From positions 2,025 to 66,024 of the forward strand of contig CAZMCO010000001.1 in the NCBI GenBank assembly GCA_964565215.1: 64,000 nucleotides of DNA, written 5' to 3'. Below the pieces are notes generated by a model that was given only the letters and a program-made list of their open reading frames with translations, had not been told where the DNA came from and did no database searches. The position numbers and the translations under genes are program-made. Positions 13,816 through 53,508 of the stretch are shown here, piece by piece. Numbering within the stretch: the stretch's first letter is position 1; the number at the start of each line of letters is the position of its first letter. This stretch comes from an uncultured Candidatus Saccharibacteria bacterium. GTDB taxonomy: Bacteria; Patescibacteriota; Minisyncoccia; Portnoybacterales; UBA2143.

Positions 13816-14352
13816 ATGAAAAAAATATTCGTTTTCATCTGGGAAACTTTCAAAATAGTAGTTATTTCCTTGGCGATTATTATTCCAGTTCGCTATTTTT
13901 TGATTCAGCCTTTTTTCGTTCGAGGAGCTTCCATGGAGCCCAATTTTGACAATGGTCAATATCTGGTTATTAATGAGATAGGTTATCGTTTTGAAGAGCC
14001 GCAACGAAAAGAAGTTGTAGTTTTCAAGTATCCCCTGGATCCCAGTCAGTATTATATTAAACGAATAATTGGCTTACCCAACGAGACAATTGAGATTAAA
14101 AACAACCAAGTGATTATCTATAATTTGGAATTTCCCCAAGGAAAAATTTTAGACGAGTCCTCTTATTTAGCTGCTGGGACAATCACTTGGGGAGAAACTA
14201 AGGTCAAATTAGCTAAGGATGAATATTTTGTCTTAGGTGATAATCGTCAGGCCAGCTCTGATTCTCGTCAATGGGGAATTCTTACCAGGAAAAATGTTAT
14301 TGGTCGAGTTTGGTTGCGAGCCTGGCCTTTTGATCAACTAACTATATTTTAA
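13816..14352 (+). CDS. lepB: signal peptidase I
   Basis: SMEP catalytic Ser box and a GDNR..S.DSR box. Confidence 0.85.
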   Translation: MKKIFVFIWETFKIVVISLAIIIPVRYFLIQPFFVRGASMEPNFDNGQYLVINEIGYRFEEPQRKEVVVFKYPLDPSQYYIKRIIGLPNETIEIKNNQVIIYNLEFPQGKILDESSYLAAGTITWGETKVKLAKDEYFVLGDNRQASSDSRQWGILTRKNVIGRVWLRAWPFDQLTIF

Positions 14353-26230: not shown

Positions 26231-27541
26231 ATGACCAAGTCCAAGATTCTTCTTTGTTTTTGCCTGCTATTTATCATTGGTCTTATTATTTATTCTTTGG
26301 TTGAGAATCATCAACCATTTTTATTTGAACAAACGGACGAAAAGGTTATTTTAGAAGGGATAATAGTTAATGAGCCAGAGCAGAGAATTAACCAACAGAA
26401 ATTTGAATTTAAGACCAAAGAAATCCCGGGGAAAATTTTAGTCACCACTGAACTTTATCCCCAATATGATTATGGAGATAAATTAAAGATTAATGGAAAA
26501 TTAAGAGAACCATCCCAGTTTGAGGATTTTGATTATCGCCAATATTTAGCTAAAGATAATATTTATTCAGTAATTTATTCTCCCAAAGTTACCTTACTGG
26601 CTAAAAATCAAGCTAATTGGTTTTATCAAAGAATTTTTAATTTTAAAAATAAGTTAAGAAAAGTTATTGATAAAACACTCTTACCGCCTCAAAGCAGTAT
26701 TCTTAAAGCCATTTTCTTAGGCGATAAATGGGGACTTTCTAATAACTTAAAAGAAAAACTAAATATCACTGGCACCCGGCACATTGTCGCTATTTCTGGT
26801 ATGCATATGATTATTATGTCCCAAATTCTTCTTTTTCTGGCCTTAGCCATGGGTCTTTGGCGGGGTCAAGCTTTCTATTTTGTCCTTATTCTCTTAGTGA
26901 TTTATATTGTTATGATTGGCGCTCCCGCCTCGGCCGTCAGGGCTGGTCTGATGGCTGGCTTGCTTTTATTAGCTCAAAAAATCGGCCGCTTGCGCAGCGC
27001 TGACCGAGCGGTTGTTTTTGCCGCTACGGCTATGCTGGCGATTAATCCATCTCTTCTAAAAGCCGATGTTGGTTTTCAATTATCTTTTATGGCCACTCTA
27101 AGTATTATTTATCTCAAACCAATTTTAGATAAGAAAATTATTAAATGGCCAAATCCCTGGCGCTTAAAAGATATTTTAACCATGACTTTGGCGGCTCAAT
27201 TAGGTACTTTGCCGATTTTAATTTTCCATTTTGGCCGACTCTCCTTAATTTCGCCTTTAGCTAATTTGCTAATTGTTCCATTTTTGCCAGTGATAATGAT
27301 ATCTGGAATCATTTTGAGTTTTACTGGCTTAATTTGGCTGTCTTTAGCAAAAATCCTGGCCTGGCCAGTTTGGTTTTTATTAAGTTATCTGGTCAAGGTA
27401 ACAGATTATTTATCTTCTTTGCCTCTGGCCGCTTACGAATTTAAAAATATTTCCTTGATAGTTTTAATAATTTATTATTTGTTTTTATTCTTAGTTATTC
27501 TTAAATGCTCAAAAACAAAAAACTTACTTATTCAACCTTAG
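26231..27541 (+). CDS. comEC: ComEC/Rec2 competence channel, N-terminal part (DUF4131 + competence domain)
   Basis: Polytopic membrane protein with an OB-like DUF4131 N-terminus and the competence domain. It ends in an A-rich tract and overlaps the next ORF by 37 nt in another frame. Confidence 0.8.
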   Translation: MTKSKILLCFCLLFIIGLIIYSLVENHQPFLFEQTDEKVILEGIIVNEPEQRINQQKFEFKTKEIPGKILVTTELYPQYDYGDKLKINGKLREPSQFEDFDYRQYLAKDNIYSVIYSPKVTLLAKNQANWFYQRIFNFKNKLRKVIDKTLLPPQSSILKAIFLGDKWGLSNNLKEKLNITGTRHIVAISGMHMIIMSQILLFLALAMGLWRGQAFYFVLILLVIYIVMIGAPASAVRAGLMAGLLLLAQKIGRLRSADRAVVFAATAMLAINPSLLKADVGFQLSFMATLSIIYLKPILDKKIIKWPNPWRLKDILTMTLAAQLGTLPILIFHFGRLSLISPLANLLIVPFLPVIMISGIILSFTGLIWLSLAKILAWPVWFLLSYLVKVTDYLSSLPLAAYEFKNISLIVLIIYYLFLFLVILKCSKTKNLLIQP

Positions 27542-28380
27542 GGCTGTTGTTTGTTGCCGCTATCCTTATCTGGTCAGCTGTTTTTTCACAAGCCCAAGAC
27601 AATATTTTAGAGGTGACTTTTTTCAATGTGGGACAAGGCGATAGTATTTTTATTGAAACACCGCAAGGACGACAAGTTTTAATTGACGGCGGGCCAGATA
27701 AAACTGTTTTAGAAAAATTAAGTCAGACAATGCCTTTTTATGATAGAACTATTGATTTACTTATTTTAACCCATCCTGATGCTGACCATATTACTGGTTT
27801 AGTGGAGGTGCTTAAGTATTACCAAGTTAGTCATATTTTAACCAGTGGCATTAAGAAAGATACGGTTGTCTATCAAAAATGGCGAGATTTAATTCAACAA
27901 AAGAGTATCCCGTTAACCATAGCTCAAGCCGGTCAGAAAATTATCCTGCAAGAGGATGTAGTTATGAAAATTTTCTGGCCGGAGCAATCGCTGATTAAAT
28001 CCTTTAGTAAAAATACTAATAATGTTTCCATAGTTGGCCAATTAGTTTACGGACAATCAGAATTTCTTTTGACTGGCGATATTGAAAAAGAAGTTGAACA
28101 GTATCTTGTTAGACCCTTAAGGTCTAACAGTTTGCAGTCAGATGTTTTAAAAATACCTCATCATGGCAGTAAAACCTCCGCTAGTCAAAATTTTCTCAAA
28201 GCAGTTAATCCGCAAATAGCAATCATTTCCGTTGGCCTTAATAATCGTTATAAACATCCTCATGCCGAAGTTTTAGAAAGATTAAAAAATTATATAATTT
28301 ATCGAACCGATAAAAATGGTGATATTAAGGTATTTACTAATGGTAATTTTTTTAATATAATTACAGAATATGAATCATAA
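27505..28380 (+). CDS. comEC: ComEC C-terminal metallo-beta-lactamase domain, separate ORF
   Basis: HPDADH MBL motif after a single N-terminal TM. In other bacteria this domain is normally fused to the preceding ComEC ORF. Confidence 0.8.
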   Translation: MLKNKKLTYSTLGLLFVAAILIWSAVFSQAQDNILEVTFFNVGQGDSIFIETPQGRQVLIDGGPDKTVLEKLSQTMPFYDRTIDLLILTHPDADHITGLVEVLKYYQVSHILTSGIKKDTVVYQKWRDLIQQKSIPLTIAQAGQKIILQEDVVMKIFWPEQSLIKSFSKNTNNVSIVGQLVYGQSEFLLTGDIEKEVEQYLVRPLRSNSLQSDVLKIPHHGSKTSASQNFLKAVNPQIAIISVGLNNRYKHPHAEVLERLKNYIIYRTDKNGDIKVFTNGNFFNIITEYES

Positions 28381-35077: not shown

Positions 35078-36070
35078 TTATTCTACATTAAACATCACAT
35101 AATTGCCAGATTCTTTAACAGCGACATCGCGAGATTTTCGGTGATTTTTGTAATCAAAGTTTTTAATCAAATTTTCTAATTGCTTCTTGTCTTTAGCAAT
35201 AAAACATTGATAGCTACTAGCCAATATGAGTTGATTTATTTCTTTTACTTTCTTTTTATCCAATTTAAGAAAATGTTCCGTTTTTGATTTAATTTTAGGC
35301 TTTATTGCAATACATAAATCCGGTCTTAGTGGAAAGAGAACAATAGCATTCGAGGATAATAAGCCGTTCATAATTTTTGTTGGCGATAAAGTAAAACAAG
35401 GATTATCTGATGTTGTAAAAAAGGAGTCTTTTGGCGCGTTTAAAAACAACCACTGAACATTAAATAACCCTTTTGCTAATCTCTCAACTTTTAAAATATC
35501 TTTTGAGTGCCCTGTATTTGTTAATTTTATTTTATAATCATCACTATGAAGAAATTGAAAGGTCTGCTTCTTGATTTCCGCATCAGACATCGTATTAATT
35601 TTTTCCAAAGCGTCTTTCTCAAATTTATTGGCAGGATTATGTTTAAGAATTTCTTCTTTTGAAATTTTGATTTTATCCAAAGAAGAAGTATCTTTTCGTA
35701 TAAAATATTTAATTACTGCTTCCATAAATTTGTCGGTCTCTTCCCTATGTCTTAGAGTTCTAATATATTGAAGAGCAACATAAAATGCGATACAACTTCG
35801 TTCCCATCCGTTTAATTGTTTTTGTTTTTTATTATCAATATTTCTGATACTTTCGGTTCCCTTAGAATCAATCAAAGCTGTTATTTTTTCGGGTAAATAA
35901 AATTTGTCTTTTCCTTCGGTAAAAACATTAAAATCTTTTTTCCAAAAACCTTTCCATCTAACCCCTCGCTCTATGAATTTATTTTCTGGAATCAAATAAA
36001 TATTAAGCTGATTACTGTTATTCTGCCATTGCACAAGGTATTTGGCTTGAATAGTGTGGTGTTTTGCCAT
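35078..36070 (-). CDS. hypothetical 330-aa protein, DUF4238-like
   Basis: N-terminal HH..Q..YL motif and internal TSDNP motif as I recall for DUF4238. It is divergent from the methyltransferase, with an 81-nt shared promoter region. Confidence 0.35.
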   Translation of the reverse strand: MAKHHTIQAKYLVQWQNNSNQLNIYLIPENKFIERGVRWKGFWKKDFNVFTEGKDKFYLPEKITALIDSKGTESIRNIDNKKQKQLNGWERSCIAFYVALQYIRTLRHREETDKFMEAVIKYFIRKDTSSLDKIKISKEEILKHNPANKFEKDALEKINTMSDAEIKKQTFQFLHSDDYKIKLTNTGHSKDILKVERLAKGLFNVQWLFLNAPKDSFFTTSDNPCFTLSPTKIMNGLLSSNAIVLFPLRPDLCIAIKPKIKSKTEHFLKLDKKKVKEINQLILASSYQCFIAKDKKQLENLIKNFDYKNHRKSRDVAVKESGNYVMFNVE

Positions 36071-36151
36071 AATTACATATCCTGTGGATAAAGCGGGTTT
36101 GTGTCTGTATAGGTATCATATTATAATATAAGTAGTAACGCAAATGATTTT

Positions 36152-37249
36152 ATGCCAACCACCCAAACATTTAAAGCAATTTATTTTCCTGATTTTAAAG
36201 AAGTAAATCCTAAATCAAAGGGTTTGATTTTAGCTTTCGGCGAAAAAAACAAAGATCTATACAAAAATATCGCCGATTTGGAAAGTAATGAAATTAGGAA
36301 TTTGCTTGGAACTGATTCATATATTGAACTCGAACAACGGGCTAAAGAAGAAGGTTTGCCAGTAAATACTTATTGTCTTTGGTATTTGCGGAAAAATGTA
36401 TTTGCTGAAGAGGAAATAATCAACAATAACGATTCAAAAGAAAAACCTATCTCCCATTTCTCTAATAATGTAATTGAAGGTGATTGTTTAGAGGTTATGA
36501 AAGAAATTCCGCCAAAATCAATCGATATGATTTTATGTGATTTGCCCTATGGCACTACTCAAAATAGTTGGGATAGTCTTATTCCGCTTGATCTGCTTTG
36601 GGAGCAATATGAACGTATTATTAAAGATCAAGGCGTTATTGCTCTAACTGCACAAGGTTTATTTACTGCAAATCTATCTTTGTCAAATCCAAGATTATTT
36701 AAATATAAGATTACTTGGGTAAAATCAAAGCCAACCAATTTCCTTAATGCCAAAAAGCAACCATTACGTAAACATGAGGATATTTGTATTTTTTACAAAA
36801 AACAGCCTGAATATAATCCACAAATGACTTATGGCGAACCTTATAATAAAGGATTCCGAAAAGATCAATTAACTGGAAGTTATGGTGATTTTAAAACCGT
36901 AGAAGTAAAAAGCAATGGCGAAAGATATCCGACCGATGTTATTTATTTTAAAACAGCCGAAAGTGAAGGGGAAGTCTACCATCCTACTCAAAAGCCAGTT
37001 GAGCTTGGCCGTTATTTAATTCGCACCTTTACCAAGACCGATGAGATTGTATTAGATAATACTTGTGGGAGTGGAAGCTTCCTTGTTTCCGCAGTTTTAG
37101 AAGGCAGAAAATTTATTGGCATTGAAAAAAATCAAGAAGTTTATCTTTTCAAAAAACACCGAGTAGATTATATTGATGTTTGCAAACAGAGAATTAAAAA
37201 AGCACAAGAACAATACAAAATAGAAAGCAGTAAAGTAAAGCTTTTCTAA
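36152..37249 (+). CDS. beta-class N6-adenine/N4-cytosine DNA methyltransferase with ~100-aa N-terminal extension
   Basis: Motif IV DLPYG (a DPPY variant) at ~aa 130, HPTQKP at ~aa 270, and motif I LDNTCGSGSF after that; the order IV before I defines beta class. Confidence 0.85.
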   Translation: MPTTQTFKAIYFPDFKEVNPKSKGLILAFGEKNKDLYKNIADLESNEIRNLLGTDSYIELEQRAKEEGLPVNTYCLWYLRKNVFAEEEIINNNDSKEKPISHFSNNVIEGDCLEVMKEIPPKSIDMILCDLPYGTTQNSWDSLIPLDLLWEQYERIIKDQGVIALTAQGLFTANLSLSNPRLFKYKITWVKSKPTNFLNAKKQPLRKHEDICIFYKKQPEYNPQMTYGEPYNKGFRKDQLTGSYGDFKTVEVKSNGERYPTDVIYFKTAESEGEVYHPTQKPVELGRYLIRTFTKTDEIVLDNTCGSGSFLVSAVLEGRKFIGIEKNQEVYLFKKHRVDYIDVCKQRIKKAQEQYKIESSKVKLF

Positions 37250-38163
37250 ATCCCGCTATATGGTTCTTCCTGTAATATTTTTCTGGCTTCTTCTATTTCA
37301 TCCTCACTTAAAATTCCTTTCTCTTTTAGCCAATTTAATAAATGAAAATATTGGTTTGAATGCAAAATCGGCTTTACGATTTTACTAAGGCCGGTTTCTT
37401 TTTTTATAAATTCAAGATGTTTTTGCGACAGTATACCTCTGCCAATTAAATCGTAAGCGATTCTTAATGCATCAACAGAGGTTAAATTTAAATCGCCAAT
37501 GTGGTTTTTGTCTTTTTTAACATCTGTTTGTTCAATTTCTAAAAGATCTTTTATTTTACTCAAACCGTTTAGATTTCGATTATAAAACTCAATCTCTTGA
37601 CCACGGTAAGTAAACCAGGTTCGTCCTTGCTCTGTAAGAGAGCCGCGTGGCAAATAAACGCCTTCGCGCGCTACTCTTTTCTTTGAAGCCCAACCGCAAA
37701 TATAAAGTGTCCATTTTCTTTGTCTGGCAGTTCCTGGAAGTTCTCTATTTTTAGGTGTTTCAAGATGAGTCATTAAATAAATATCTGTATCAAGTTGTTC
37801 GTCATAAATCTGCCTGGCAAAAAAATTATGTTTTGCTTCTCTTGTGATACCATCGTTGCTTTCGTATTCCTCTTTGAAAGGCAAAGCTCCGCCTCTACAT
37901 TTTACATCTAATTTTACACCAGATGATAGTAAAATATCATAGCCCAAAGGATGATCTTCGGGATTAACTTCTGGCATTCCCAATTTATTCCTGATAACCA
38001 TCTCTGCCAAAGCTCCAAATCCTTGTTCTTCTTTACTGCCTCGTTCTGCACCAGTTATATTTTGATTTTTGGTAATATATTCTGCGGCTTTTTGTCTCAA
38101 ATCAAAACCAAGCTCATCGGTAAGCTTTATGGTAATTGGTTTTGGATGATGATATTTATACAT
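37246..38163 (-). CDS. PD-(D/E)xK-type nuclease, candidate cognate restriction endonuclease
   Basis: GYD-x9-LDVK core preceded by acidic residues. Convergent with the methyltransferase, and the two stop codons overlap (tTAa). Confidence 0.45.
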   Translation of the reverse strand: MYKYHHPKPITIKLTDELGFDLRQKAAEYITKNQNITGAERGSKEEQGFGALAEMVIRNKLGMPEVNPEDHPLGYDILLSSGVKLDVKCRGGALPFKEEYESNDGITREAKHNFFARQIYDEQLDTDIYLMTHLETPKNRELPGTARQRKWTLYICGWASKKRVAREGVYLPRGSLTEQGRTWFTYRGQEIEFYNRNLNGLSKIKDLLEIEQTDVKKDKNHIGDLNLTSVDALRIAYDLIGRGILSQKHLEFIKKETGLSKIVKPILHSNQYFHLLNWLKEKGILSEDEIEEARKILQEEPYSGI

Positions 38164-47756: not shown

Positions 47757-48296
47757 ATGGAAAAGGGAACAGGCGGGTTTCTTGACCCTGAAACAATTTT
47801 AGAACAATTAGACATCCATGATAATATGCAGATGGCTGATTTTGGTTCTGGTCACGGTTATTTTTCTATTCCTTTGGCTAAAGTAGTTCCTCAAGGCAAG
47901 GTTTATGCCTTGGATGTAGTTAAAGAGGCCTTAGAAGCAGTTAAAGGCAAAGCTGAAATAGAAAAGATTTCTAATATTGAAGCCATTCATTGTAATCTTG
48001 AAGTTCTAAATGGTTCAAAGTTAACTGAAGATTCGATTGATCTAGTTGTTTTAGCCAATATTTTATTCCAATCACAGAAAAAATCAGCCATTTTGAAAGA
48101 AGCCAAGAGAGTTTTAAAAAAAGATGGACAATTAGTTTTAATTGAATGGATTGCTGATTCATCTTTGGCTCCTAAAAAAGGTTGGCTGATTTCTCAAGAA
48201 GAAGCTAAGCAATTAGCTGAAGCCGAGGGGTTAAGATTGGATAAAGAATTAGATATAGATAGTCAGCATTATGGAATGGTTTTCAAAAAAACCTAA
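47757..48296 (+). CDS. class I SAM-dependent methyltransferase
   Basis: DFGSGHGYF motif I (GxGxG). Confidence 0.7.
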   Translation: MEKGTGGFLDPETILEQLDIHDNMQMADFGSGHGYFSIPLAKVVPQGKVYALDVVKEALEAVKGKAEIEKISNIEAIHCNLEVLNGSKLTEDSIDLVVLANILFQSQKKSAILKEAKRVLKKDGQLVLIEWIADSSLAPKKGWLISQEEAKQLAEAEGLRLDKELDIDSQHYGMVFKKT

Positions 48297-49581
48297 ATCC
48301 AAAACTACCTCTTTATATTCTCTGATCATCCCCATTATTTTAACCGGGAGCTTATTTGGTTTAGCGGCTATTTTGCCTGGCTGTAAGGAACCAGCTCAAA
48401 AAGCGGAATTAGAATTCTGGGGAGTTTTTGATGATTCGGATATTTATCGATCCCTGATTGAAGGCTTTAATAAAGAATTTCCTAACATTAAAATTAAATA
48501 TTACAAAAAGACCTATCAGACCTACGAGAATGATTTATTAGAAGCAATGGCTAGTGGGCGAGGTCCTGATATTTTTGTCATGCATCATACTTGGCTGCCC
48601 AGATATCAAGATAAAATTTGGGCCGCTCCTTCAACCTTAATCAGCCAAAAAGAAATTCAAGATAATTTTGTTGATGTAGTGACTGATGATTTTATCAAAG
48701 ATGGCTATATCTCTGCCCTTCCTTTAAGCGTTGATACTTTAGCTCTTTATTACAACAAGGATATTTTTAATACCATGGGTATTCCCCAGCCGCCAACTAC
48801 TTGGGATGAGTTTTTAGATGACGTAGAAAAATTAACTATTAAAGATGAACGAGACAATATTGTTCGAGCGGCGGCTGCCTTAGGAACAGCTCGTAATATC
48901 AACCGGTCAACTGATATTTTAACTCTTTTAATGCTTCAGTCAGGGGCTCAAATAGTTAATCAGCAAAAGACTAAAGCTACTTTTAATCAAGAGGTAGGAA
49001 ATTTTAATCCTGGTCAAAGGTCCTTACAGTTCTATACTGATTTTGCTGATTTGCGTAAGTCAATTTATACCTGGAATACTCGGATGGATTATTCGATTGA
49101 TAGTTTTTCCCAAGGAAAGACAGCCATGATGTTAAATTATTCTTATCAACTACCGATTATTCGGGCTAAATCACCTTATTTAAATTTCGGCATTGCCCCC
49201 ATGCCTCAAACTGAAGAGTCAACTAAAGACGTTAATTACGCTAATTATTGGGGATTAACGGTTTCTCGTAATTGTCAAAGTCCTAATCAGGCTTGGCAGT
49301 TTATTATTTGGCTGACCGAAAAAGAAAAAGCTCAAAGATATTTAGAATTGACCAAAAAGCCAACCGCTCGGCGCGATTTAATTCTTTGGCAAAAAGATGA
49401 TTCAGATTTGGGTGTTTTTGCTCAGCAGGCCTTGACCGCCTATTCTTGGTATCAAGTGGATAACTCATCTATTGAAATCGTTTTAGCCGATATGATAGAA
49501 TCAGTAATATTAGGTCAAGCGACTATCAGAGAAGCTGTTGATAGAGCAGCTAACGAGGTAACTCTTTTAATGCAGAGATAA
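48271..49581 (+). CDS. ABC transporter extracellular solute-binding lipoprotein (family 1, sugar-type)
   Basis: Lipobox LPGC after the signal peptide; SBP_bac_1-like layout. Confidence 0.7.
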   Translation: MEWFSKKPKSKTTSLYSLIIPIILTGSLFGLAAILPGCKEPAQKAELEFWGVFDDSDIYRSLIEGFNKEFPNIKIKYYKKTYQTYENDLLEAMASGRGPDIFVMHHTWLPRYQDKIWAAPSTLISQKEIQDNFVDVVTDDFIKDGYISALPLSVDTLALYYNKDIFNTMGIPQPPTTWDEFLDDVEKLTIKDERDNIVRAAAALGTARNINRSTDILTLLMLQSGAQIVNQQKTKATFNQEVGNFNPGQRSLQFYTDFADLRKSIYTWNTRMDYSIDSFSQGKTAMMLNYSYQLPIIRAKSPYLNFGIAPMPQTEESTKDVNYANYWGLTVSRNCQSPNQAWQFIIWLTEKEKAQRYLELTKKPTARRDLILWQKDDSDLGVFAQQALTAYSWYQVDNSSIEIVLADMIESVILGQATIREAVDRAANEVTLLMQR

Positions 49582-49982
49582 TGAAAATCTTTCAGAAAAT
49601 TTTTATATTAGGTTTTTTGGTTCTAATGGGGGTAATCATTACTAATCTAGTTCAGGCTGGTTTTGTTACTGAACCAATAGTTCCCTGTACTGATGATTGT
49701 ACGCTTTGTGACCTTTGGCATTTAGCCAGCAACATTATTAATTTTATTTCTTTTAATTTAGCTATTCCAGTGGCGGCTATTTTATTTATCGCGGCTGGAG
49801 TCACTTTTCTAATTTCTGGTGGCAGTGAAGAAAAAGTTGCTTTAGCTAGAAGTATTTTCACTAACACAGCTATTGGCATAGTTATTATTTTCTGTAGTTG
49901 GATGTTAATTGATACTTTGGTTAAGAGTATTGCCGACGGGACATTCAGCGGTGCCTGGAATCAATTCCCCACTTGTCCATAA
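49581..49982 (+). CDS. TrbC/VirB2-like pilin paralog 1 (Cys-rich variant)
   Basis: Signal/TM then a hydrophobic helix, the ISGGSEEK..ARS loop and a second helix. It carries the extra motifs CTDDCTLCD and a C-terminal FPTCP. Confidence 0.5.
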   Translation: MKIFQKIFILGFLVLMGVIITNLVQAGFVTEPIVPCTDDCTLCDLWHLASNIINFISFNLAIPVAAILFIAAGVTFLISGGSEEKVALARSIFTNTAIGIVIIFCSWMLIDTLVKSIADGTFSGAWNQFPTCP

Positions 49983-49990
49983 GATATTAT

Positions 49991-50356
49991 ATGTCTAAAA
50001 ATATCTTCAAAAATTTCTCTTTAGTGTTTATTCTGATTTTTGTTTTTTTAATAATTGTTTGGCCATTAGTTAAGGTTCAGGCCCAACCACCGTCGGGTTC
50101 AATAGAAAACCCACTTGAGGCTGAAAGTTTTACTCAACTTTTTGCCGGTATTGCTAATTGGGTAGCTGGTTTTGTAGCTACTTTGGCTGTTTTAATGGTT
50201 GTCATTGGCGGCCTTCAGTATATGATTTCTGGAGGTAATGAGGAAAAAACAAAGGCGGCTCGCAGAACTATTCAGTGGGCTTTGATCGGTCTGATTATTG
50301 TTTTGATGTCTTGGAGTTTATTGCAAACCTTATTAACAATTTTAGGCGTAGAATAA
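49991..50356 (+). CDS. TrbC/VirB2-like pilin paralog 2
   Basis: AGIANWVAGFVATLAVLMVVIGGLQYMISGGNEEKTKAARR...: a two-helix pilin architecture. I chose ATG 49991 over the TTG at 49973, which overlaps paralog 1. Confidence 0.5.
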   Translation: MSKNIFKNFSLVFILIFVFLIIVWPLVKVQAQPPSGSIENPLEAESFTQLFAGIANWVAGFVATLAVLMVVIGGLQYMISGGNEEKTKAARRTIQWALIGLIIVLMSWSLLQTLLTILGVE

Positions 50357-50391
50357 TTTTTTATCTTTATAAAGAAAGGGGGTGAAATTCA

Positions 50392-50736
50392 GTGAAAATT
50401 ACAAAGAAATCATTATTTAGTTTATTAACGCTAACAACTTTTATGTTTTTAGCTAGCGTGGCTGTTGTTTCTGCTCAAATGGCAGAACCAGAAGTGGAAG
50501 GCTTTTCCGAGCGGTCAGTTACAGAAATTATCCAAAATATTACTAACTGGATAGTTGGTATTGTTGCTTTGATTGCTGTTTTGGTTATTGTCATTGCCGG
50601 AGTTATGTGGGCGACAGCTGGCGGTAATGAAGACCAACAAGGCAAAGCCAGAAAGTTATTAATTTCTGGAATAATTGGTTTGTTCATTGCTTTAGCTGCT
50701 TTGGCTATAGTCAGGCTTGTTATAGGACGACTTTAG
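50392..50736 (+). CDS. TrbC/VirB2-like pilin paralog 3
   Basis: NWIVGIVALIAVLVIVIAGVMWATAGGNEDQQGKARK...: same architecture. A Shine-Dalgarno aaagggggtg lies upstream. Confidence 0.5.
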   Translation: MKITKKSLFSLLTLTTFMFLASVAVVSAQMAEPEVEGFSERSVTEIIQNITNWIVGIVALIAVLVIVIAGVMWATAGGNEDQQGKARKLLISGIIGLFIALAALAIVRLVIGRL

Positions 50737-50764: not shown

Positions 50765-50811
50765 AAAAGCCAGACAAGCAGTTTTTTGCTTTGTCTGGCT
50801 TTTGATTTTTT
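50765..50811. terminator. bidirectional terminator (aaagccagacaagc...gctttgtctggcttt + T run)
   Basis: Direct read; it lies between pilin paralog 3 and the convergent 138-aa gene. Confidence 0.7.
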
Positions 50812-50814
50812 AGT

Positions 50815-51231
50815 TCAGGAACGTTTAGAAATTATCCATGCCTGAACTATTGTTTCTTCCCCATCAGCGGCCATTAATCGAACTTTGTCACTATATTTGG
50901 TTCGGCCGCTGGAAGCGACTCGACGGCTGGTAGTCCAGTTTGGATGAATAGGTCTTTTATTGACTACTCTAAATTTCCCAAGAGAGCCAAGCTGCTGAAA
51001 GCGAACATATTCTCCTTTCTTATACCACAACTCTTGACCATTTACATCTTTGTTTACTATTGTCCCATTAGCCGGCAGTTTGAAAATACCAACCAGCTGA
51101 CGTGGTGATTGTTTAATAGTTTGTTTATTATTTGCTTGAGGAATAAAGAGAAAGCCTATTATTATAAATATTATTCCTGACCAAATAATCCGTTTAGCAG
51201 AGAAAGATTCAGTTTTCGTCTCTTTAGCCAT
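50815..51231 (-). CDS. hypothetical membrane-anchored protein, possible short NfeD-like partner of the SPFH gene
   Basis: A single N-terminal TM and a beta-rich C-terminus. Its start overlaps the SPFH stop (ATGA). Confidence 0.3.
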   Translation of the reverse strand: MAKETKTESFSAKRIIWSGIIFIIIGFLFIPQANNKQTIKQSPRQLVGIFKLPANGTIVNKDVNGQELWYKKGEYVRFQQLGSLGKFRVVNKRPIHPNWTTSRRVASSGRTKYSDKVRLMAADGEETIVQAWIISKRS

Positions 51232-52181
51232 TATTGACCACCTCCTTTAATAAGACCTGCTCCGATTTTTTCCAGCCCGCTTCCTATTCTATCTAACCCT
51301 GGAATATCGTAGGTAGCACCATGTCCTTCCCGTATCACTTTCCTTCTTCTTATTTCTAAAATGCACTCCTCAAGAGTTTTTGGCGAACCAGCTTCTTCGT
51401 ATGCCTTAAAGAGCTTTTGGGCTTGTTGAATTTCTGTGTCTATTTCATATACTTCAGCCCTTCGTTCTTGGATTTCTTTAGCTTGAGCTTCTGCTACTTC
51501 AGCTAATTTACCTTCCTCTTTTACCCGACCAACATTAAACCGCCAGATAATTATCCCTAAATCTACGATATCGGGGAAGCCATTGGATTGCAATTGTTTT
51601 TGGAGATCTCCAGTAGTTTGTCCTTGTTTAGGAATCTCCCCGGTCAGTTTTTTGACTAAACGAGCAACTAATTCATCAGTAGCAAAACTGACTGCTTCCC
51701 AACTTCTTTCTCTGCCCATTTGACGGACATCTTCTTCAATAAGATCTCGAAGGATACTTCTAATTCCTTCTTCGCTGCCGCTATCGATGAAAGAAATAAG
51801 TCGTTCACCATTTACGTGACTGTAATCCGGTTGCCAAGTTAAGCCAATTTTGACAGAAATTTCACCGCCTGAACGTGGTATTTCTCCTTTTGTCTCTGTT
51901 GTTTCACCTTCTTCGTCTTCTCTTCGTCGGCATCTAATATTCTCAAAGGGAAAATCCTCATTAACTTTTTCAATCTTAATTGGAATAAAGCTGTAAAAGA
52001 ATGGGAAAAACGGTAGAAAGAAACGCAATCCTTCTTTTTTAATCTTTTTTATTCTTTTTCCCCAGAGAGTAACTAGTCCCACATGAGGTGGTTTGGCTAG
52101 AATTTTTTTCAGACATACTTTCAGTCCTATGCCAGTAAATATAAGTAAAAATCCTATAACTATTAAAATCTTTCCTGTCAT
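51231..52181 (-). CDS. SPFH/band-7 (stomatin/flotillin-like) membrane protein
   Basis: N-terminal TM, SPFH core (VGLVTLWGKRI..EGLRFFLPF) and a C-terminal AEAQAKEIQERRAE coiled coil. Confidence 0.55.
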   Translation of the reverse strand: MTGKILIVIGFLLIFTGIGLKVCLKKILAKPPHVGLVTLWGKRIKKIKKEGLRFFLPFFPFFYSFIPIKIEKVNEDFPFENIRCRRREDEEGETTETKGEIPRSGGEISVKIGLTWQPDYSHVNGERLISFIDSGSEEGIRSILRDLIEEDVRQMGRERSWEAVSFATDELVARLVKKLTGEIPKQGQTTGDLQKQLQSNGFPDIVDLGIIIWRFNVGRVKEEGKLAEVAEAQAKEIQERRAEVYEIDTEIQQAQKLFKAYEEAGSPKTLEECILEIRRRKVIREGHGATYDIPGLDRIGSGLEKIGAGLIKGGGQ

Positions 52182-52292
52182 TTTCTTATCCTCCTTTTAT
52201 TTTTAATGAACTATTGTCTATATTATATATAATAAAATTCTAAATGTCAAGAGTATTGATTTTACGGGAAAAGGGGATTAAAATAAAAGAAG

Positions 52293-52376
52293 GCGGACGT
52301 GGCGGAATTGGCAGACGCGCTAGGTTTAGGACCTAGTGGGAATTATCCCATGTGGGTTCGAGTCCCACCGTCCGCA
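52293..52376 (+). tRNA. tRNA-Leu (anticodon TAG)
   Basis: Manual fold: acceptor GCGGACG/CGTCCGC, anticodon arm CTAGG-TTTAGGA-CCTAG, and a long variable arm. Confidence 0.8.
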
Positions 52377-52383
52377 CTGCTTT

Positions 52384-53508
52384 ATGAATAAAATCAAAAA
52401 TATTCTTCAATCAATTAGGATTGAAGAATATATTTTATTTCTCTTTTGCCTGATCTTATTTTTATTTTTTATTACTCTTTTTTTTCGCTTTAATTGGTTA
52501 GTTTCTTTTAGAAGTGGCTTTAAAGTTGTTGTTCTTGGAATAAACTATTTCTCTTTTGTCCTTATTTTTATTTACTTTTATATCTCTTTTAAATATTTAT
52601 TTAATTGGCTATATCACCATAACCGGCCTAAGATAAAAAATATTTTAAAAAATGCTTTATTTTCCTTAAGACCTCTTTTCTCAATGACAATATTTTTTAT
52701 TCTAATTACTTTAGTTATTGGTTCAATGGCAATTCAGCTTAGGGGAAACTTGATTGATGGCTGGTTAATGGGAATAGATAAATCATTGCTTGGTTTTTAT
52801 CCTTTTCTTTGGTTTCAACAATCAACTAATTTTTTAAAAAACTTGGCTCCTTTATTTTTGTATTCTTTTCTTTGGCTGGGTTTAATTATGGGAATTAGTT
52901 GGATTATTTTTTATTTGGCTGGCCAAAGAAAATTTTTTAGCCAATATATTATGGCTATGTCTTTGGTAGTGATGATTGCTTTGCCTCTCTGGTATTTTTT
53001 TCCCGCCAACAGTCCCCAAAACACTTATTTAAATAATGTTTATAACAAACAAATAGATTCGTCTATAAAAGAATTAACAGACAATTATCAACCTAATAAA
53101 TATCTTTTAAGTTTTCATAAGGAAATTGGCGTTGAACAGGGCGAGATTGCTCCGGTGACTACTATGCCTAGCATGCATGTGGCTTGGACAATAGTTATTA
53201 TTTATTATCTTTTTAAATTTAAAAGAAAAACAATTTATTTTACTTTACCTTGGGCATTTTTTTCTATTTTGGGAACAGTCTATTTAGCCCAACATTATTT
53301 TATTGATATTTTAGTTGCTTTATTAGTTGCTTTATTGGCTATTTGTTTAGCTAATTGTTTGGTCAAAATAGAAAAAAGATATTATCAAGAAGGGAAATTG
53401 GACAATCAAGAGAAATTTTTTAAAGAAGAAGTAAAAAAAGACCTATCCAGGATATACCAAATAATTAAAGAATTATTCCGCTATTTCTATCGGGTACAAA
53501 TCTGGTGA
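52384..53508 (+). CDS. polytopic membrane protein, PAP2-superfamily-like (tentative)
   Basis: PSMH and HYFIDI motifs in the C-terminal helices. I set the start at ATG 52384 because the GTG-start extension overlaps tRNA-Leu. Confidence 0.35.
   Translation: MNKIKNILQSIRIEEYILFLFCLILFLFFITLFFRFNWLVSFRSGFKVVVLGINYFSFVLIFIYFYISFKYLFNWLYHHNRPKIKNILKNALFSLRPLFSMTIFFILITLVIGSMAIQLRGNLIDGWLMGIDKSLLGFYPFLWFQQSTNFLKNLAPLFLYSFLWLGLIMGISWIIFYLAGQRKFFSQYIMAMSLVVMIALPLWYFFPANSPQNTYLNNVYNKQIDSSIKELTDNYQPNKYLLSFHKEIGVEQGEIAPVTTMPSMHVAWTIVIIYYLFKFKRKTIYFTLPWAFFSILGTVYLAQHYFIDILVALLVALLAICLANCLVKIEKRYYQEGKLDNQEKFFKEEVKKDLSRIYQIIKELFRYFYRVQIW

What the first reader, a model, noticed from the sequence alone, without database searches (positions are those of the whole stretch)
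49581..50736. Three tandem TrbC/VirB2-like pilin paralogs with no other type IV secretion genes nearby
Three consecutive small ORFs of 133, about 121 and 114 aa share one architecture. Each has a signal/TM segment, a hydrophobic helix of the form ..NW(I/V).G.VA..AVL.V.I.G.., a loop (M/L)ISGG(S/N)E(E/D)..(K/A)AR, and a second hydrophobic helix. This is the layout of T4SS VirB2/TrbC pilins and of the pilin-like proteins abundant in CPR genomes. No VirB4, VirD4 or VirB6 gene is in the window. The paralogs differ strongly in their exposed N-terminal regions, which suggests functional or antigenic diversification. DprA and ComEC elsewhere in the window hint that these may belong to a DNA-uptake or host-attachment apparatus.
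Basis: partly seen in the sequence, partly recalled or inferred. Interest (0 to 1): 0.6.

Follow-up and report, generated by a model that had tools for sequence, protein, structure and literature searches.

The report
Sugar-binding lipoprotein plus three VirB2-like pilins
The three small genes are real VirB2/TrbC-type pilin-like proteins of an ultrasmall Saccharibacteria-like bacterium, a kind of gene array already described in this group; the one possibly new point is that they always follow a sugar-binding lipoprotein gene.

Summary
Three same-strand ORFs lie at 49581-49982, 49991-50356 and 50392-50736 (133, 121 and 114 aa). Each has a signal peptide with a V-x-A cleavage site, two hydrophobic helices and a GG(S/N)E..AR loop. 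All three pass the Pfam gathering score of PF18895 (T4SS_pilin), and the third also passes PF04956 (TrbC/VirB2). I scanned every ORF of at least 110 aa in the window, and public annotation covers 10 kb beyond its left end. None is a VirB4, VirD4, VirB6 or VirB3 gene. The closest relatives are Saccharibacteria MAGs.

This is a known kind. Tandem arrays of divergent VirB2-like pilins in Patescibacteria were reported in 2020, 2023 and 2025. They are essential in Southlakia epibionticum, and they lie away from virB4 in about 40% of assemblies.

- The paralogs are old. Each has 1:1 orthologues in the same order in related genomes.
- The array is strictly coupled to the upstream SBP_bac_1 lipoprotein gene. 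A pilin gene follows it in 74 of 74 loci selected by SBP, and it precedes 38 of 58 arrays selected by pilin.
- The SBP-proximal pilin (P1) has four invariant extracytoplasmic cysteines.

The link to ComEC/DprA is not supported.

The parts
48271..49581 (+). SBP_bac_1 (CUT1 sugar/maltodextrin-type) solute-binding protein with an N-terminal hydrophobic segment and an LPGC lipobox-like motif. Its TAA stop overlaps the ATG of P1 by one base.
   Evidence: Pfam PF01547 E 3.2e-40. Best solved relatives are sugar/maltose-binding proteins, e.g. 5ci5 at 1.9e-20. Orthologues lie directly upstream of pilin arrays in 38 GTDB loci. A pilin gene directly follows the SBP in 74 of 74 SBP-selected metagenome loci with enough downstream DNA. 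No ABC permease or ATPase gene is next to it.
49472..49501 (+). Promoter-like site (TTGAAA, 18-nt spacer, TG-TAGAAT) inside the 3' end of the SBP gene, 80 nt upstream of P1. It is a possible internal promoter for the pilin genes.
   Evidence: Consensus scan, 10 of 12 matches with an extended -10 TG. This is weak: 20 sites were found in the region against 14.8 expected from shuffles.
49581..49982 (+). P1, a 133-aa pilin-like precursor (predicted mature form 107 aa). It is the SBP-proximal, cysteine-bearing type.
   Evidence: PF18895 37.8 bits against a cutoff of 26.6. V-Q-A cleavage site. C36, C40, C43 and C132 are invariant in 23 orthologues. The first pilin after the SBP is Cys-rich in 79% of loci, against 17% of other pilins.
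49991..50356 (+). P2, a 121-aa pilin-like precursor (predicted mature form 90 aa).
   Evidence: PF18895 46.9 bits. NCBIfam NF045849 37.3 bits, just under the cutoff of 40. V-Q-A site. Orthologues at 55-64% identity in the same position.
50392..50736 (+). P3, a 114-aa pilin-like precursor (predicted mature form 86 aa). It is the best match to classical TrbC/VirB2 and has the strongest ribosome-binding site, so it is the candidate major subunit (inference).
   Evidence: PF18895 61.8 bits and PF04956 37.5 bits against a cutoff of 27.9. The AF2 model (pLDDT 77.8) shows a signal-peptide helix plus a helical hairpin at 43-75 and 80-113. AAAGGGGGTG lies 7 nt upstream of the GTG.
50765..50803 (.). GC-rich hairpin followed by a T run. 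It lies between P3 and the convergent ORF 50815-51231 and is the likely bidirectional terminator closing the SBP-pilin transcription unit.
   Evidence: RNA fold gives -24.7 kcal/mol with z = -4.84; 0 of 200 shuffles fold as well.
13816..14352 (+). Signal peptidase I gene. It is the enzyme expected to cleave the three V-x-A signal peptides and acts in trans. Its role here is inferred.
   Evidence: Pfam Peptidase_S26 E 2e-42.

Best explanation
The locus is a chromosomal cassette of a Saccharibacteria-like (Patescibacteria) bacterium. It consists of an SBP-like sugar-binding lipoprotein gene followed by three VirB2/TrbC-family pilin-like genes (P1, P2, P3). The genes are probably transcribed together and end at one terminator.

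Shown here: family membership by HMM; a Sec-type signal peptide with a V-x-A site in each protein; a two-helix hairpin with acidic termini and a K/R-containing GG(S/N)E..AR loop; conservation of the cassette and its gene order.

Inferred: the precursors are inserted by Sec and cut by signal peptidase I. They sit in the membrane with both ends outside and the loop inside. The Patescibacteria-type T4SS (VirB4, TrsD, PrgI/VirB3, VirB6), encoded elsewhere in the genome, then extracts them and polymerises them into a pilus or envelope-spanning conduit that contacts the host bacterium. P3 is the likely major subunit. P1 carries four invariant outside-facing cysteines that could tie its N- and C-terminal ends together, and is a specialised minor subunit. 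The co-encoded sugar-binding lipoprotein acts with the array, for example as a glycan-recognition or accessory component.
For: Family membership. All three pass the gathering score of PF18895, and P3 also passes PF04956. A distant family member (P0027, 33% identity) sits in a canonical monoderm conjugative cluster: pilin, TrbL_3, PrgI, VirB4-like, T4CP, relaxase, NlpC/P60. This ties the family to T4SS machinery.

Architecture. Searches show it, and an SPase I gene is in the window.

Taxon. The nearest GTDB loci are Ca. Saccharibacteria MAGs.

Literature. Arrays of 4-6 small Sec-signal proteins lie beside VirB4/VirB6 in Saccharibacteria (PMC7427843). Six PF18895 pilins (SEML1_0014-0019) are essential and lie inside the T4SS cluster of Southlakia epibionticum (PMC10633639; supplement). 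A survey found 441 arrays of 2-11 pilins in 383 assemblies with mean 25% identity, and the pilin was near virB4 in only 1135 of 1948 assemblies (PMC12102498).

Conservation of the cassette. It recurs. SBP coupling is shown. The genes after the SBP are true PF18895 proteins, not permeases.
Against: No VirB4, VirB6, VirB3 or VirD4 gene lies within about 49 kb upstream or 13 kb downstream in the window, nor in the 10 kb beyond its left end. I could not read the rest of the genome, so the partner machinery is assumed. A Walker-A screen found no VirB4/VirD4-like ATPase within 10 kb of any of 79 related arrays. Pili made of these proteins have never been observed in any patescibacterium; the review PMC12857230 speaks only of a 'potential to elaborate conjugative pili'. 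Fold and sequence searches against solved structures gave no specific match to VirB2/TraA pilins. The essential Southlakia array is T4SS-linked and has no SBP_bac_1 gene beside it, so the SBP-linked type might have a different job.
Confidence: 0.6

Rival explanations
1. The SBP and the pilin-like hairpins form a self-contained envelope module that does not depend on a T4SS. In this reading the sugar-binding lipoprotein is the ligand-binding part. The small two-helix proteins are its membrane or wall-spanning partner, standing where ABC permease genes normally follow an SBP gene. The module would serve uptake or sensing of host-derived saccharides, or attachment to host glycans.
For: Coupling is strict and runs both ways: a pilin gene directly follows the SBP in 74 of 74 SBP-selected loci, and all 46 SBP hits in the pilin-selected DNA are adjacent to a pilin gene. 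The stop and start codons overlap by 1 nt. No ABC permease or ATPase gene is nearby, and the genes after the SBP are PF18895 proteins. No T4SS ATPase was found near 79 arrays. A sugar-nucleotidyl transferase gene precedes the SBP in 25 loci.
Against: The family is homologous to TrbC/VirB2, and members sit inside real T4SS clusters. No two-helix pilin-like protein is known to act as a transporter partner of an SBP (my own knowledge). Conserved adjacency can reflect co-expression of envelope proteins without physical interaction. 20 of 58 arrays with covered upstream DNA lack the SBP.
Confidence: 0.2
2. The pilins belong to a DNA-uptake apparatus that works with ComEC and DprA. This would resemble the Helicobacter ComB system, a T4SS-derived competence machine with a VirB2-like ComB2.
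For: ComEC and DprA are in the same 64-kb window, and RecG is 12 kb downstream. In class ABY1, T4SS loci often include comF, recG and radA (PMC12102498). Most patescibacterial T4SS clusters lack a relaxase (PMC12102498, abstract), so conjugative export is unlikely.
Against: ComEC and DprA lie 22 and 38 kb from the array with unrelated housekeeping genes between them, and dprA sits in its usual place beside topA. In Southlakia, competence depends on type IV pili and ComEC. A comEC deletion is viable while the pilin array and T4SS are essential, so their essential role is not DNA uptake (PMC12857230).
Confidence: 0.08
3. The three ORFs are ordinary small membrane anchors, or chance hydrophobic ORFs, whose likeness to pilins comes from composition alone.
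For: Short hydrophobic proteins attract weak HMM matches; one search lists many sub-threshold hits to unrelated membrane families. Fold searches return only generic helical bundles.
Against: Scores are 11-35 bits above the curated PF18895 cutoff. The polar loop motif GG(S/N)E..AR, which is not hydrophobic, is the most conserved segment (75% among orthologues). Orthologues are conserved in order across many genomes. The profile finds 26,056 representatives at E <= 1e-10.
Confidence: 0.02

Closest known systems
Patescibacteria VirB2-like pilin arrays: the TM7x 'Sec-secreted array' (McLean 2020, PMC7427843); SEML1_0014-0019 of Southlakia epibionticum ML1 (Wang 2023, PMC10633639); the 441 arrays catalogued by Quinonero-Coronel 2025 (PMC12102498)
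   Same: The Pfam families are the same (PF18895, with or without PF04956). The sizes match (about 110-140 aa). Each protein has a Sec signal peptide. The genes lie in tandem on one strand. Identity between neighbours is low (23-34% here, against a mean of 25% in the survey). The host is a Saccharibacteria/Patescibacteria chromosome. There is no relaxase.
   Different: In TM7x and ML1 the array (4-6 genes) sits inside or beside the VirB4/VirB6/PrgI cluster near the origin. Here there are only three genes and no T4SS gene within at least 49 kb on one side and 13 kb on the other. The array is also fused to an SBP_bac_1 lipoprotein gene. The papers I could read do not mention that link.
Classical conjugative pilins TrbC (RP4), VirB2 (Agrobacterium T-pilin) and TraA (F)
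   Same: A long signal peptide is cleaved by signal peptidase I. The mature protein of about 70-110 aa consists of two hydrophobic helices joined by a short polar, basic loop. P3 passes the PF04956 gathering score.
   Different: The host is a monoderm. P1 and P2 do not reach the PF04956 cutoff. No sequence or fold match to solved pilins was found. No VirB5, VirB1 or TraF-type maturation genes are nearby. Cyclisation, as in TrbC and VirB2, cannot be assessed. P1 instead has conserved cysteines at both ends.
Multi-copy VirB2 paralogs of Bartonella and Anaplasma T4SS loci
   Same: These are tandem, divergent VirB2 copies thought to widen host-surface interaction or vary antigens. PMC12102498 draws the same comparison.
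   Different: Here the copies are stable orthologous lineages kept in fixed order across species. They are not locus-specific expansions. The only recent duplication seen is in relative L021, which has two identical copies.
Mbov_0395 family pilin-like conjugal transfer protein of Mycoplasma ICEs (NCBIfam NF045849)
   Same: This is the best NCBIfam match for P2 and P3 (E about 2e-9). It is another monoderm lineage with a VirB2-like small membrane protein.
   Different: Scores of 37.3 and 36.7 fall below the curated cutoff of 40, and P1 has no hit. There is no ICE context here.
Orphan solute-binding proteins attached to T4SS biology: PrgZ of pCF10, and ChvE with VirA in Agrobacterium (from my own knowledge, not tested here)
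   Same: In both, an SBP-fold protein works alongside a type IV secretion system rather than only as part of its own ABC transporter.
   Different: PrgZ is a family-5 peptide binder. ChvE is a family-2 sugar binder that signals to a kinase. Neither is encoded in front of pilin genes. Any functional parallel is speculation.

Membership tests
Pfam PF18895 T4SS_pilin | Whole-protein HMM score above the curated gathering score (26.6 bits) | tested here: met
   P1 37.8, P2 46.9 and P3 61.8 bits. The public precomputed annotation agrees.
Pfam PF18895 T4SS_pilin | Signal peptide followed by a two-helix hydrophobic hairpin with a short polar loop | tested here: met
   Hydropathy scan. AF2 helices at 5-29, 43-75 and 80-113 in P3. 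V-x-A sites and K/R-rich loops.
Pfam PF18895 T4SS_pilin | Encoded with T4SS machinery genes (VirB4, VirB6/TrbL, VirB3/PrgI) | tested here: not met
   None is present in the 64-kb window or in the 10 kb beyond its left end. The rest of the genome could not be read. A distant member does sit in such a cluster.
Pfam PF04956 TrbC/VirB2 pilin | HMM score above the gathering score (27.9 bits) | tested here: inconclusive
   P3 is above the cutoff at 37.5 bits. P1 is below it at 15.5 bits. P2 has no hit.
Pfam PF04956 TrbC/VirB2 pilin | Precursor processed by signal peptidase I at an A-x-A-type site | tested here: met
   The sites are VQA|G, VQA|Q and VSA|Q, each after a basic n-region and a hydrophobic h-region. 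An SPase I gene is in the window. This rests on the sequence rule only; no SignalP run or protein data were available.
Pfam PF04956 TrbC/VirB2 pilin | Fold or sequence similarity to solved conjugative pilins (F TraA, T-pilin VirB2, pKM101 TraM) | tested here: inconclusive
Pfam PF04956 TrbC/VirB2 pilin | Polymerisation into an extracellular pilus by a VirB4-dependent machine | not testable with these tools
   Needs microscopy or biochemistry. It has not been shown for any patescibacterial pilin (PMC12857230).
Patescibacteria VirB2 arrays (PMC12102498) | Two or more PF18895/PF04956 genes in tandem, or separated by one non-pilin gene | tested here: met
   Three consecutive genes with gaps of 8 and 35 nt.
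Patescibacteria VirB2 arrays (PMC12102498) | Low identity between array members (mean 25%, maximum 54%) | tested here: met
   32%, 23% and 34%.
Patescibacteria VirB2 arrays (PMC12102498) | Host genome belongs to Patescibacteria | tested here: met
   The nearest GTDB loci (61-63% identity, same synteny) are titled 'uncultured Candidatus Saccharibacteria bacterium'. The window has about 36% G+C and compact housekeeping content.
Type IV pilins / competence pseudopilins (T4P, ComG) | Class III signal peptide with a G|F/M-x-x-x-E prepilin peptidase site (Pfam N_methyl PF07963) | tested here: not met
   No N_methyl match even at E <= 10. The sequences show SPase I-type sites and a second transmembrane helix instead.
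NCBIfam NF045849 Mbov_0395 pilin-like conjugal transfer protein | Score above the curated cutoff (40 bits) | tested here: not met
   P2 37.3 bits, P3 36.7 bits, P1 no hit.
CUT1 sugar ABC importer (for the SBP gene 48271-49581) | SBP gene accompanied by permease (BPD_transp_1) and ATPase genes | tested here: not met
   The SBP domain itself is clear (PDB relatives). No permease or ATPase gene is in the window. In other loci the genes after the SBP are PF18895 proteins. The genes before it are a sugar-nucleotidyl transferase or a methyltransferase. Permeases elsewhere in the genome cannot be excluded.

The most novel reading that the evidence does not exclude
The CUT1-type sugar-binding lipoprotein and the pilin-like array are one obligate device, conserved across several classes of Patescibacteria. 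In this reading the SBP is the ligand-recognising part, binding a host-surface glycan or a host-derived saccharide. The cysteine-stapled P1 and the other VirB2-like hairpins form its filament or trans-envelope partner. The device would either work with the patescibacterial T4SS or replace ABC permeases altogether. That would give a concrete molecular handle on how these epibionts recognise or feed on their hosts.
Probability: 0.25. Interest if true: 0.75.

Novelty: new member of a known kind. Interest (0 to 1): 0.4.

Why it matters
Taken alone, the trio adds one more example to a catalogued class, so it changes little. What could matter is the context. Patescibacterial T4SS pilin arrays are essential in the one organism tested, and their function is unknown.

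A strictly conserved partner gene encoding a sugar-binding lipoprotein suggests specific experiments. So does a conserved pilin subtype (P1) with four invariant external cysteines. The experiments are SBP ligand screening, SBP-P1 interaction tests, and deletion of the SBP in a tractable Saccharibacterium. These could show what the appendage binds or carries.

The data also point to at least two array types, SBP-linked and T4SS- or dnaA-linked. Surveys centred on virB4 would not separate them.

Tried and rejected

2. Finding T4SS genes near related arrays. phmmer with the VirB4, TrbL, PrgI, T4CP and relaxase proteins of the actinobacterial-type cluster in L010 found nothing in 79 patescibacterial loci; the seeds are too distant. 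A Walker-A screen of ORFs of at least 450 aa, followed by Pfam, found only FtsH, IF-2, Mfd, FtsK and DnaA. A divergent VirB4 without a canonical P-loop would be missed.

3. Are the larger genes after the SBP really ABC permeases that hit the pilin HMM through hydrophobicity? No. Ten of them carry PF18895 and none carries BPD_transp_1.

4. Reading the rest of the genome. Exact-protein look-ups extended the view by 10 kb on the left and only to the end of recG on the right. The cluster look-up shows a 91-kb NCBI contig, but no accession was given. Whether VirB4 exists elsewhere in this genome stays untested.

5. Mobile-element origin. I rejected this. G+C is uniform, there is no integrase or relaxase, and the genes upstream of the array (FtsH to the SBP) and those further downstream from VanW on keep their order in related genomes, although the block directly downstream of the array differs.

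6. NCBIfam naming. The best model (NF045849) falls just below its cutoff, so the proteins are not filed there.

7. Literature on the SBP link. Searches of the main texts and held supplements of PMC12102498 and PMC10633639, and broader term searches, found no mention. This is absence in the library I could search, not proof that the link is unpublished.
Full report
**1. The observation**

The ORF list shows three consecutive + strand ORFs at the stated coordinates.
- P1: 49581-49982, 133 aa, ATG start.
- P2: 49973-50356 from a TTG, or 49991-50356 (121 aa) from the ATG. Public gene calls use the ATG.
- P3: 50392-50736, 114 aa, GTG start preceded by AAAGGGGGTG.

The three-way alignment confirms a common plan. 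There is an N-terminal hydrophobic segment, a variable polar stretch, helix 1, a loop with invariant GG-x-E and A-R, and helix 2. Pairwise identities are 32% (P1/P2), 23% (P1/P3) and 34% (P2/P3).

Each N-terminal segment ends in V-x-A (VQA|G, VQA|Q, VSA|Q). The following 18 residues carry net charge -3 to -4, and the loop holds 2-4 K/R. By the -3/-1 rule and the positive-inside rule (established knowledge), this predicts cleavage by signal peptidase I. It also predicts a hairpin with both ends outside and the loop in the cytoplasm. An SPase I gene is in the window at 13816-14352.

An AF2 model of P3 (28-sequence alignment, mean pLDDT 77.8) gives helices at 5-29, 43-75 and 80-113.

**2. What the proteins are**

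All three exceed the gathering score of Pfam PF18895 (T4SS_pilin): 37.8, 46.9 and 61.8 bits against 26.6, with E-values of 2e-9, 3e-12 and 6.6e-17. P3 also exceeds that of PF04956 (TrbC/VirB2) at 37.5 against 27.9 bits.

NCBIfam's closest model is the Mycoplasma ICE pilin-like protein NF045849. P2 and P3 fall just short of it at 37.3 and 36.7 bits against 40.

A profile built from P3 homologues finds 88,404 cluster representatives at E <= 0.001 and 26,056 at E <= 1e-10 in a library of 1.84 billion proteins. This is a very large family.

One distant member (P0027, 33% identity) lies in a textbook monoderm conjugative cluster: pilin, TrbL_3, PrgI, VirB4-like ATPase, coupling protein, relaxase, NlpC/P60. 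That context is why the family carries its name.

Searches against solved structures were uninformative, as expected for a helical hairpin.

**3. The surroundings**

I scanned every ORF of at least 110 aa in the window against Pfam. The window is ordinary chromosome. It carries LeuRS, ParA/ParB, RelA/SpoT, TopA, DprA, SPase I, HisRS, FtsA/FtsZ, ribonucleotide reductase, ComEC, IF-2, FtsH, GyrA, VanW, Hsp20, PrsW, IleRS-like, TsaD and RecG, plus 16 tRNAs. G+C is uniform at about 36%.

There is no VirB4, VirD4, VirB6/TrbL, VirB3/PrgI, VirB8, relaxase or type IV pilus gene, and no further pilin gene. The 10 kb beyond the left end are also housekeeping.

A strong hairpin with a T run at 50765-50803 (-24.7 kcal/mol, z = -4.84) closes the unit, facing a convergent ORF.

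**4. The organism and conservation**

Identical trios occur on nine metagenome contigs. The nearest species-level relatives in GTDB are MAGs titled Candidatus Saccharibacteria.

Upstream of the array they keep the order FtsH, S1, MBL, GyrA, methyltransferase, SBP, then the pilins. VanW, Hsp20, PrsW and IleRS follow further downstream, beyond a block that differs from the window's.

Each paralog has its own orthologue in the same position. P1 is 77, 70 and 58% identical to its orthologues, P2 64, 63 and 55%, and P3 63, 62 and 42%. Housekeeping neighbours are 85-91% identical, and envelope neighbours (SBP, VanW) 71-77%.

Among SBP-selected metagenome loci, P1-P2-P3 is the commonest complete array, seen in 14 loci.

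So the three are old, differentiated paralogs, not recent or hypervariable copies. Within P3 orthologues the exposed N-terminal tail is the least conserved part (33% mean pairwise identity). The cytoplasmic/lumenal loop is the most conserved (75%).

**5. What is already known**

- McLean et al. 2020 (PMC7427843) described an array of 4-6 small Sec-signal proteins beside VirB4/VirB6 in Saccharibacteria.
- Wang et al. 2023 (PMC10633639) showed that six PF18895 genes (SEML1_0014-0019), inside the T4SS cluster of Southlakia epibionticum, are essential for epibiotic growth.
- Quinonero-Coronel et al. 2025 (PMC12102498) searched 3,035 genomes with PF04956 and PF18895. They found 441 arrays of 2-11 pilin genes in 383 assemblies, with mean identity of 25% within arrays. 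The pilin gene was near virB4 in only 1,135 of 1,948 assemblies.
- A 2025 review (PMC12857230) calls these systems unique among monoderms for their essentiality and their potential to make conjugative pili. It also notes that a comEC deletion is viable, so the essential role is not DNA uptake through ComEC.

**6.

The gene directly upstream (48271-49581) encodes a family-1 solute-binding protein (PF01547, E 3.2e-40). It has an N-terminal hydrophobic segment and an LPGC motif. Its nearest solved relatives are sugar and maltodextrin binders. Its TAA stop overlaps the ATG of P1.

In 79 GTDB loci retrieved with the pilin profile, clear orthologues of this SBP (E 1e-120 to 1e-180) lie directly upstream of the array on the same strand. 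This holds for 38 of the 58 arrays whose upstream DNA is covered. Every one of the 46 SBP hits in the fetched DNA abuts a pilin gene.

I then ran the reverse test on 80 metagenome loci retrieved with the SBP profile (43-75% identity). A pilin-domain gene directly followed the SBP in 74 of the 74 loci with enough downstream DNA.

The genes after the SBP are genuine PF18895 proteins, some with extra domains. They are not ABC permeases. No permease or ATPase gene is nearby.

Outside Saccharibacteria, a sugar-nucleotidyl transferase precedes the SBP in 25 loci (PF00483; GalU-like by my reading of its N-terminal motif).

I found no mention of this SBP link in the papers or supplements I could search.

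**7. The P1 type**

The first pilin gene after the SBP is unusually cysteine-rich. Its median is 6 Cys, and 79% have at least 4. Other pilin-domain ORFs have a median of 0, and 17% have at least 4.

In 23 orthologues of the window's P1, four cysteines are invariant. C36, C40 and C43 lie in the mature N-terminal tail, and C132 is next to the C-terminus. Both ends are predicted to be outside the cell. Disulfides tying the two ends together are therefore plausible (inference). Functionally that would resemble the head-to-tail cyclisation of TrbC and VirB2 (established knowledge). In more distant loci this first gene carries larger ectodomains of 180-1,200 aa.

**8. Most likely mechanism**

Shown:
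- Homology to VirB2/TrbC-type pilins.
- Sec/SPase I-type signals.
- The hairpin layout.
- A conserved SBP-P1-P2-P3 cassette ending in a terminator.

Inferred:
- The genes are co-transcribed, possibly also from a promoter-like site at 49472-49501 (weak evidence).
- The signal peptides are cleaved, leaving a membrane pool of hairpins.
- These are assembled by a patescibacterial VirB4/TrsD/PrgI/VirB6 machine encoded elsewhere into a pilus or conduit at the host interface.
- P3 is the major subunit, because it has the best ribosome-binding site and the most canonical sequence. P1 is a specialised subunit, and the SBP acts as an accessory.

I give this 0.6. The main rival is a T4SS-independent SBP-pilin module (0.2). 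It draws on the strict coupling and on the absence of T4SS ATPases near 79 arrays. A ComB-like DNA-uptake role gets 0.08. Chance or generic anchors get 0.02.

**9. Limits**

- I could not read the rest of this genome, so the existence of a VirB4 partner is assumed from the literature.
- The Walker-A screen would miss a VirB4 with a degenerate P-loop.
- Signal-peptide calls rest on sequence rules, not SignalP.
- The loci analysed were the best-scoring 80 of several hundred in each scan, so the fractions describe those samples.
- Conserved adjacency of the SBP does not prove physical or functional interaction.

**10. Verdict**

The feature is a new member of a known kind. Interest is modest (0.4), raised slightly by the SBP coupling and the cysteine-stapled P1, both of which are testable leads.

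Noticed in passing
window 48271-49581; loci L013-L171: The SBP_bac_1 lipoprotein gene upstream of the trio is strictly linked to pilin arrays across Patescibacteria. A pilin gene follows it in 74 of 74 SBP-selected loci, and it precedes 38 of 58 pilin-selected arrays. No ABC permease gene is nearby.
   Followed up: yes
window 49581-49982; 23 orthologues from L007, L013, L021 and L094-L159: P1-type pilins have four invariant cysteines, C36, C40, C43 and C132, at the two predicted extracellular ends. The first pilin after the SBP is Cys-rich in 79% of loci.
   Followed up: partly
L017 6463-7335, L032 5356-6282 and 23 other loci: An NTP_transferase gene of about 290 aa (PF00483, GalU-like) sits directly upstream of the SBP-pilin cassette in 25 non-Saccharibacteria loci. 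In the window's lineage a 179-aa methyltransferase (47757-48296) takes that place.
   Followed up: partly
L023 9830-15673, L029 5144-15548, L033 5716-10622, L045 2482-4551, L068 10001-20363, L075 4384-10038, L079 5563-15925: Giant ORFs of 690 to more than 3,450 aa match the pilin profile; the tblastn matches that fetched these loci lie near their N-terminal ends. They often occur in pairs and have no SBP nearby. They look like huge surface proteins anchored by a VirB2-like hairpin.
   Followed up: no
proteins P0033-P0062: The top hits of the pilin profile are single polypeptides with 4-17 pilin-domain repeats (for example P0035, 1,775 aa, 17 stretches). They are either true fused arrays or read-through artefacts of gene calling under another genetic code.
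   Followed up: no
window 26231-27541 and 27505-28380: ComEC is split into a Competence-domain ORF and a separate metallo-beta-lactamase ORF. The two overlap by 37 nt. This is either a natural split or a frameshift.
   Followed up: no
window 50815-53508, compared with L007 10490-14889 and L013 9921 onward: The block just downstream of the array is not conserved in relatives. In the window it holds a 138-aa unknown, a Band_7 protein, tRNA-Leu and a PAP2 protein. Relatives have a 769-aa GT2 glycosyltransferase, a 277-aa unknown and a different Band_7 protein before synteny resumes at VanW. It looks like a variable spot next to a tRNA.
   Followed up: partly
L030, L052, L058, L087: A second array type has no SBP. 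It lies a few kb from dnaA-dnaN and a class A PBP, with two divergent unknown genes (about 460 and 520 aa, no Pfam hit) between them. This fits the published origin-proximal placement of T4SS components.
   Followed up: partly
L021 10787-11125 and 11216-11554: A related Saccharibacteria MAG has five pilin genes at the same chromosomal site. Two of them encode identical proteins, which indicates a recent tandem duplication.
   Followed up: no
L024 1323-4523: The FtsH gene of this patescibacterial MAG (1,066 aa) carries an intein (Intein_splicing) inside the AAA domain.
   Followed up: no
window 35078-38163: A DUF4238 protein, an N6/N4 DNA methylase and a 304-aa protein with no Pfam hit lie between tRNA clusters. 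This may be a small restriction-modification or defence islet.
   Followed up: no
L032 1348-5337: In a 914-kb patescibacterial contig, type IV pilus-related genes (N_methyl and PilX_N domains) lie immediately upstream of the NTP_transferase-pilin-SBP-pilin array. The two kinds of pilus genes are therefore neighbours there.
   Followed up: no
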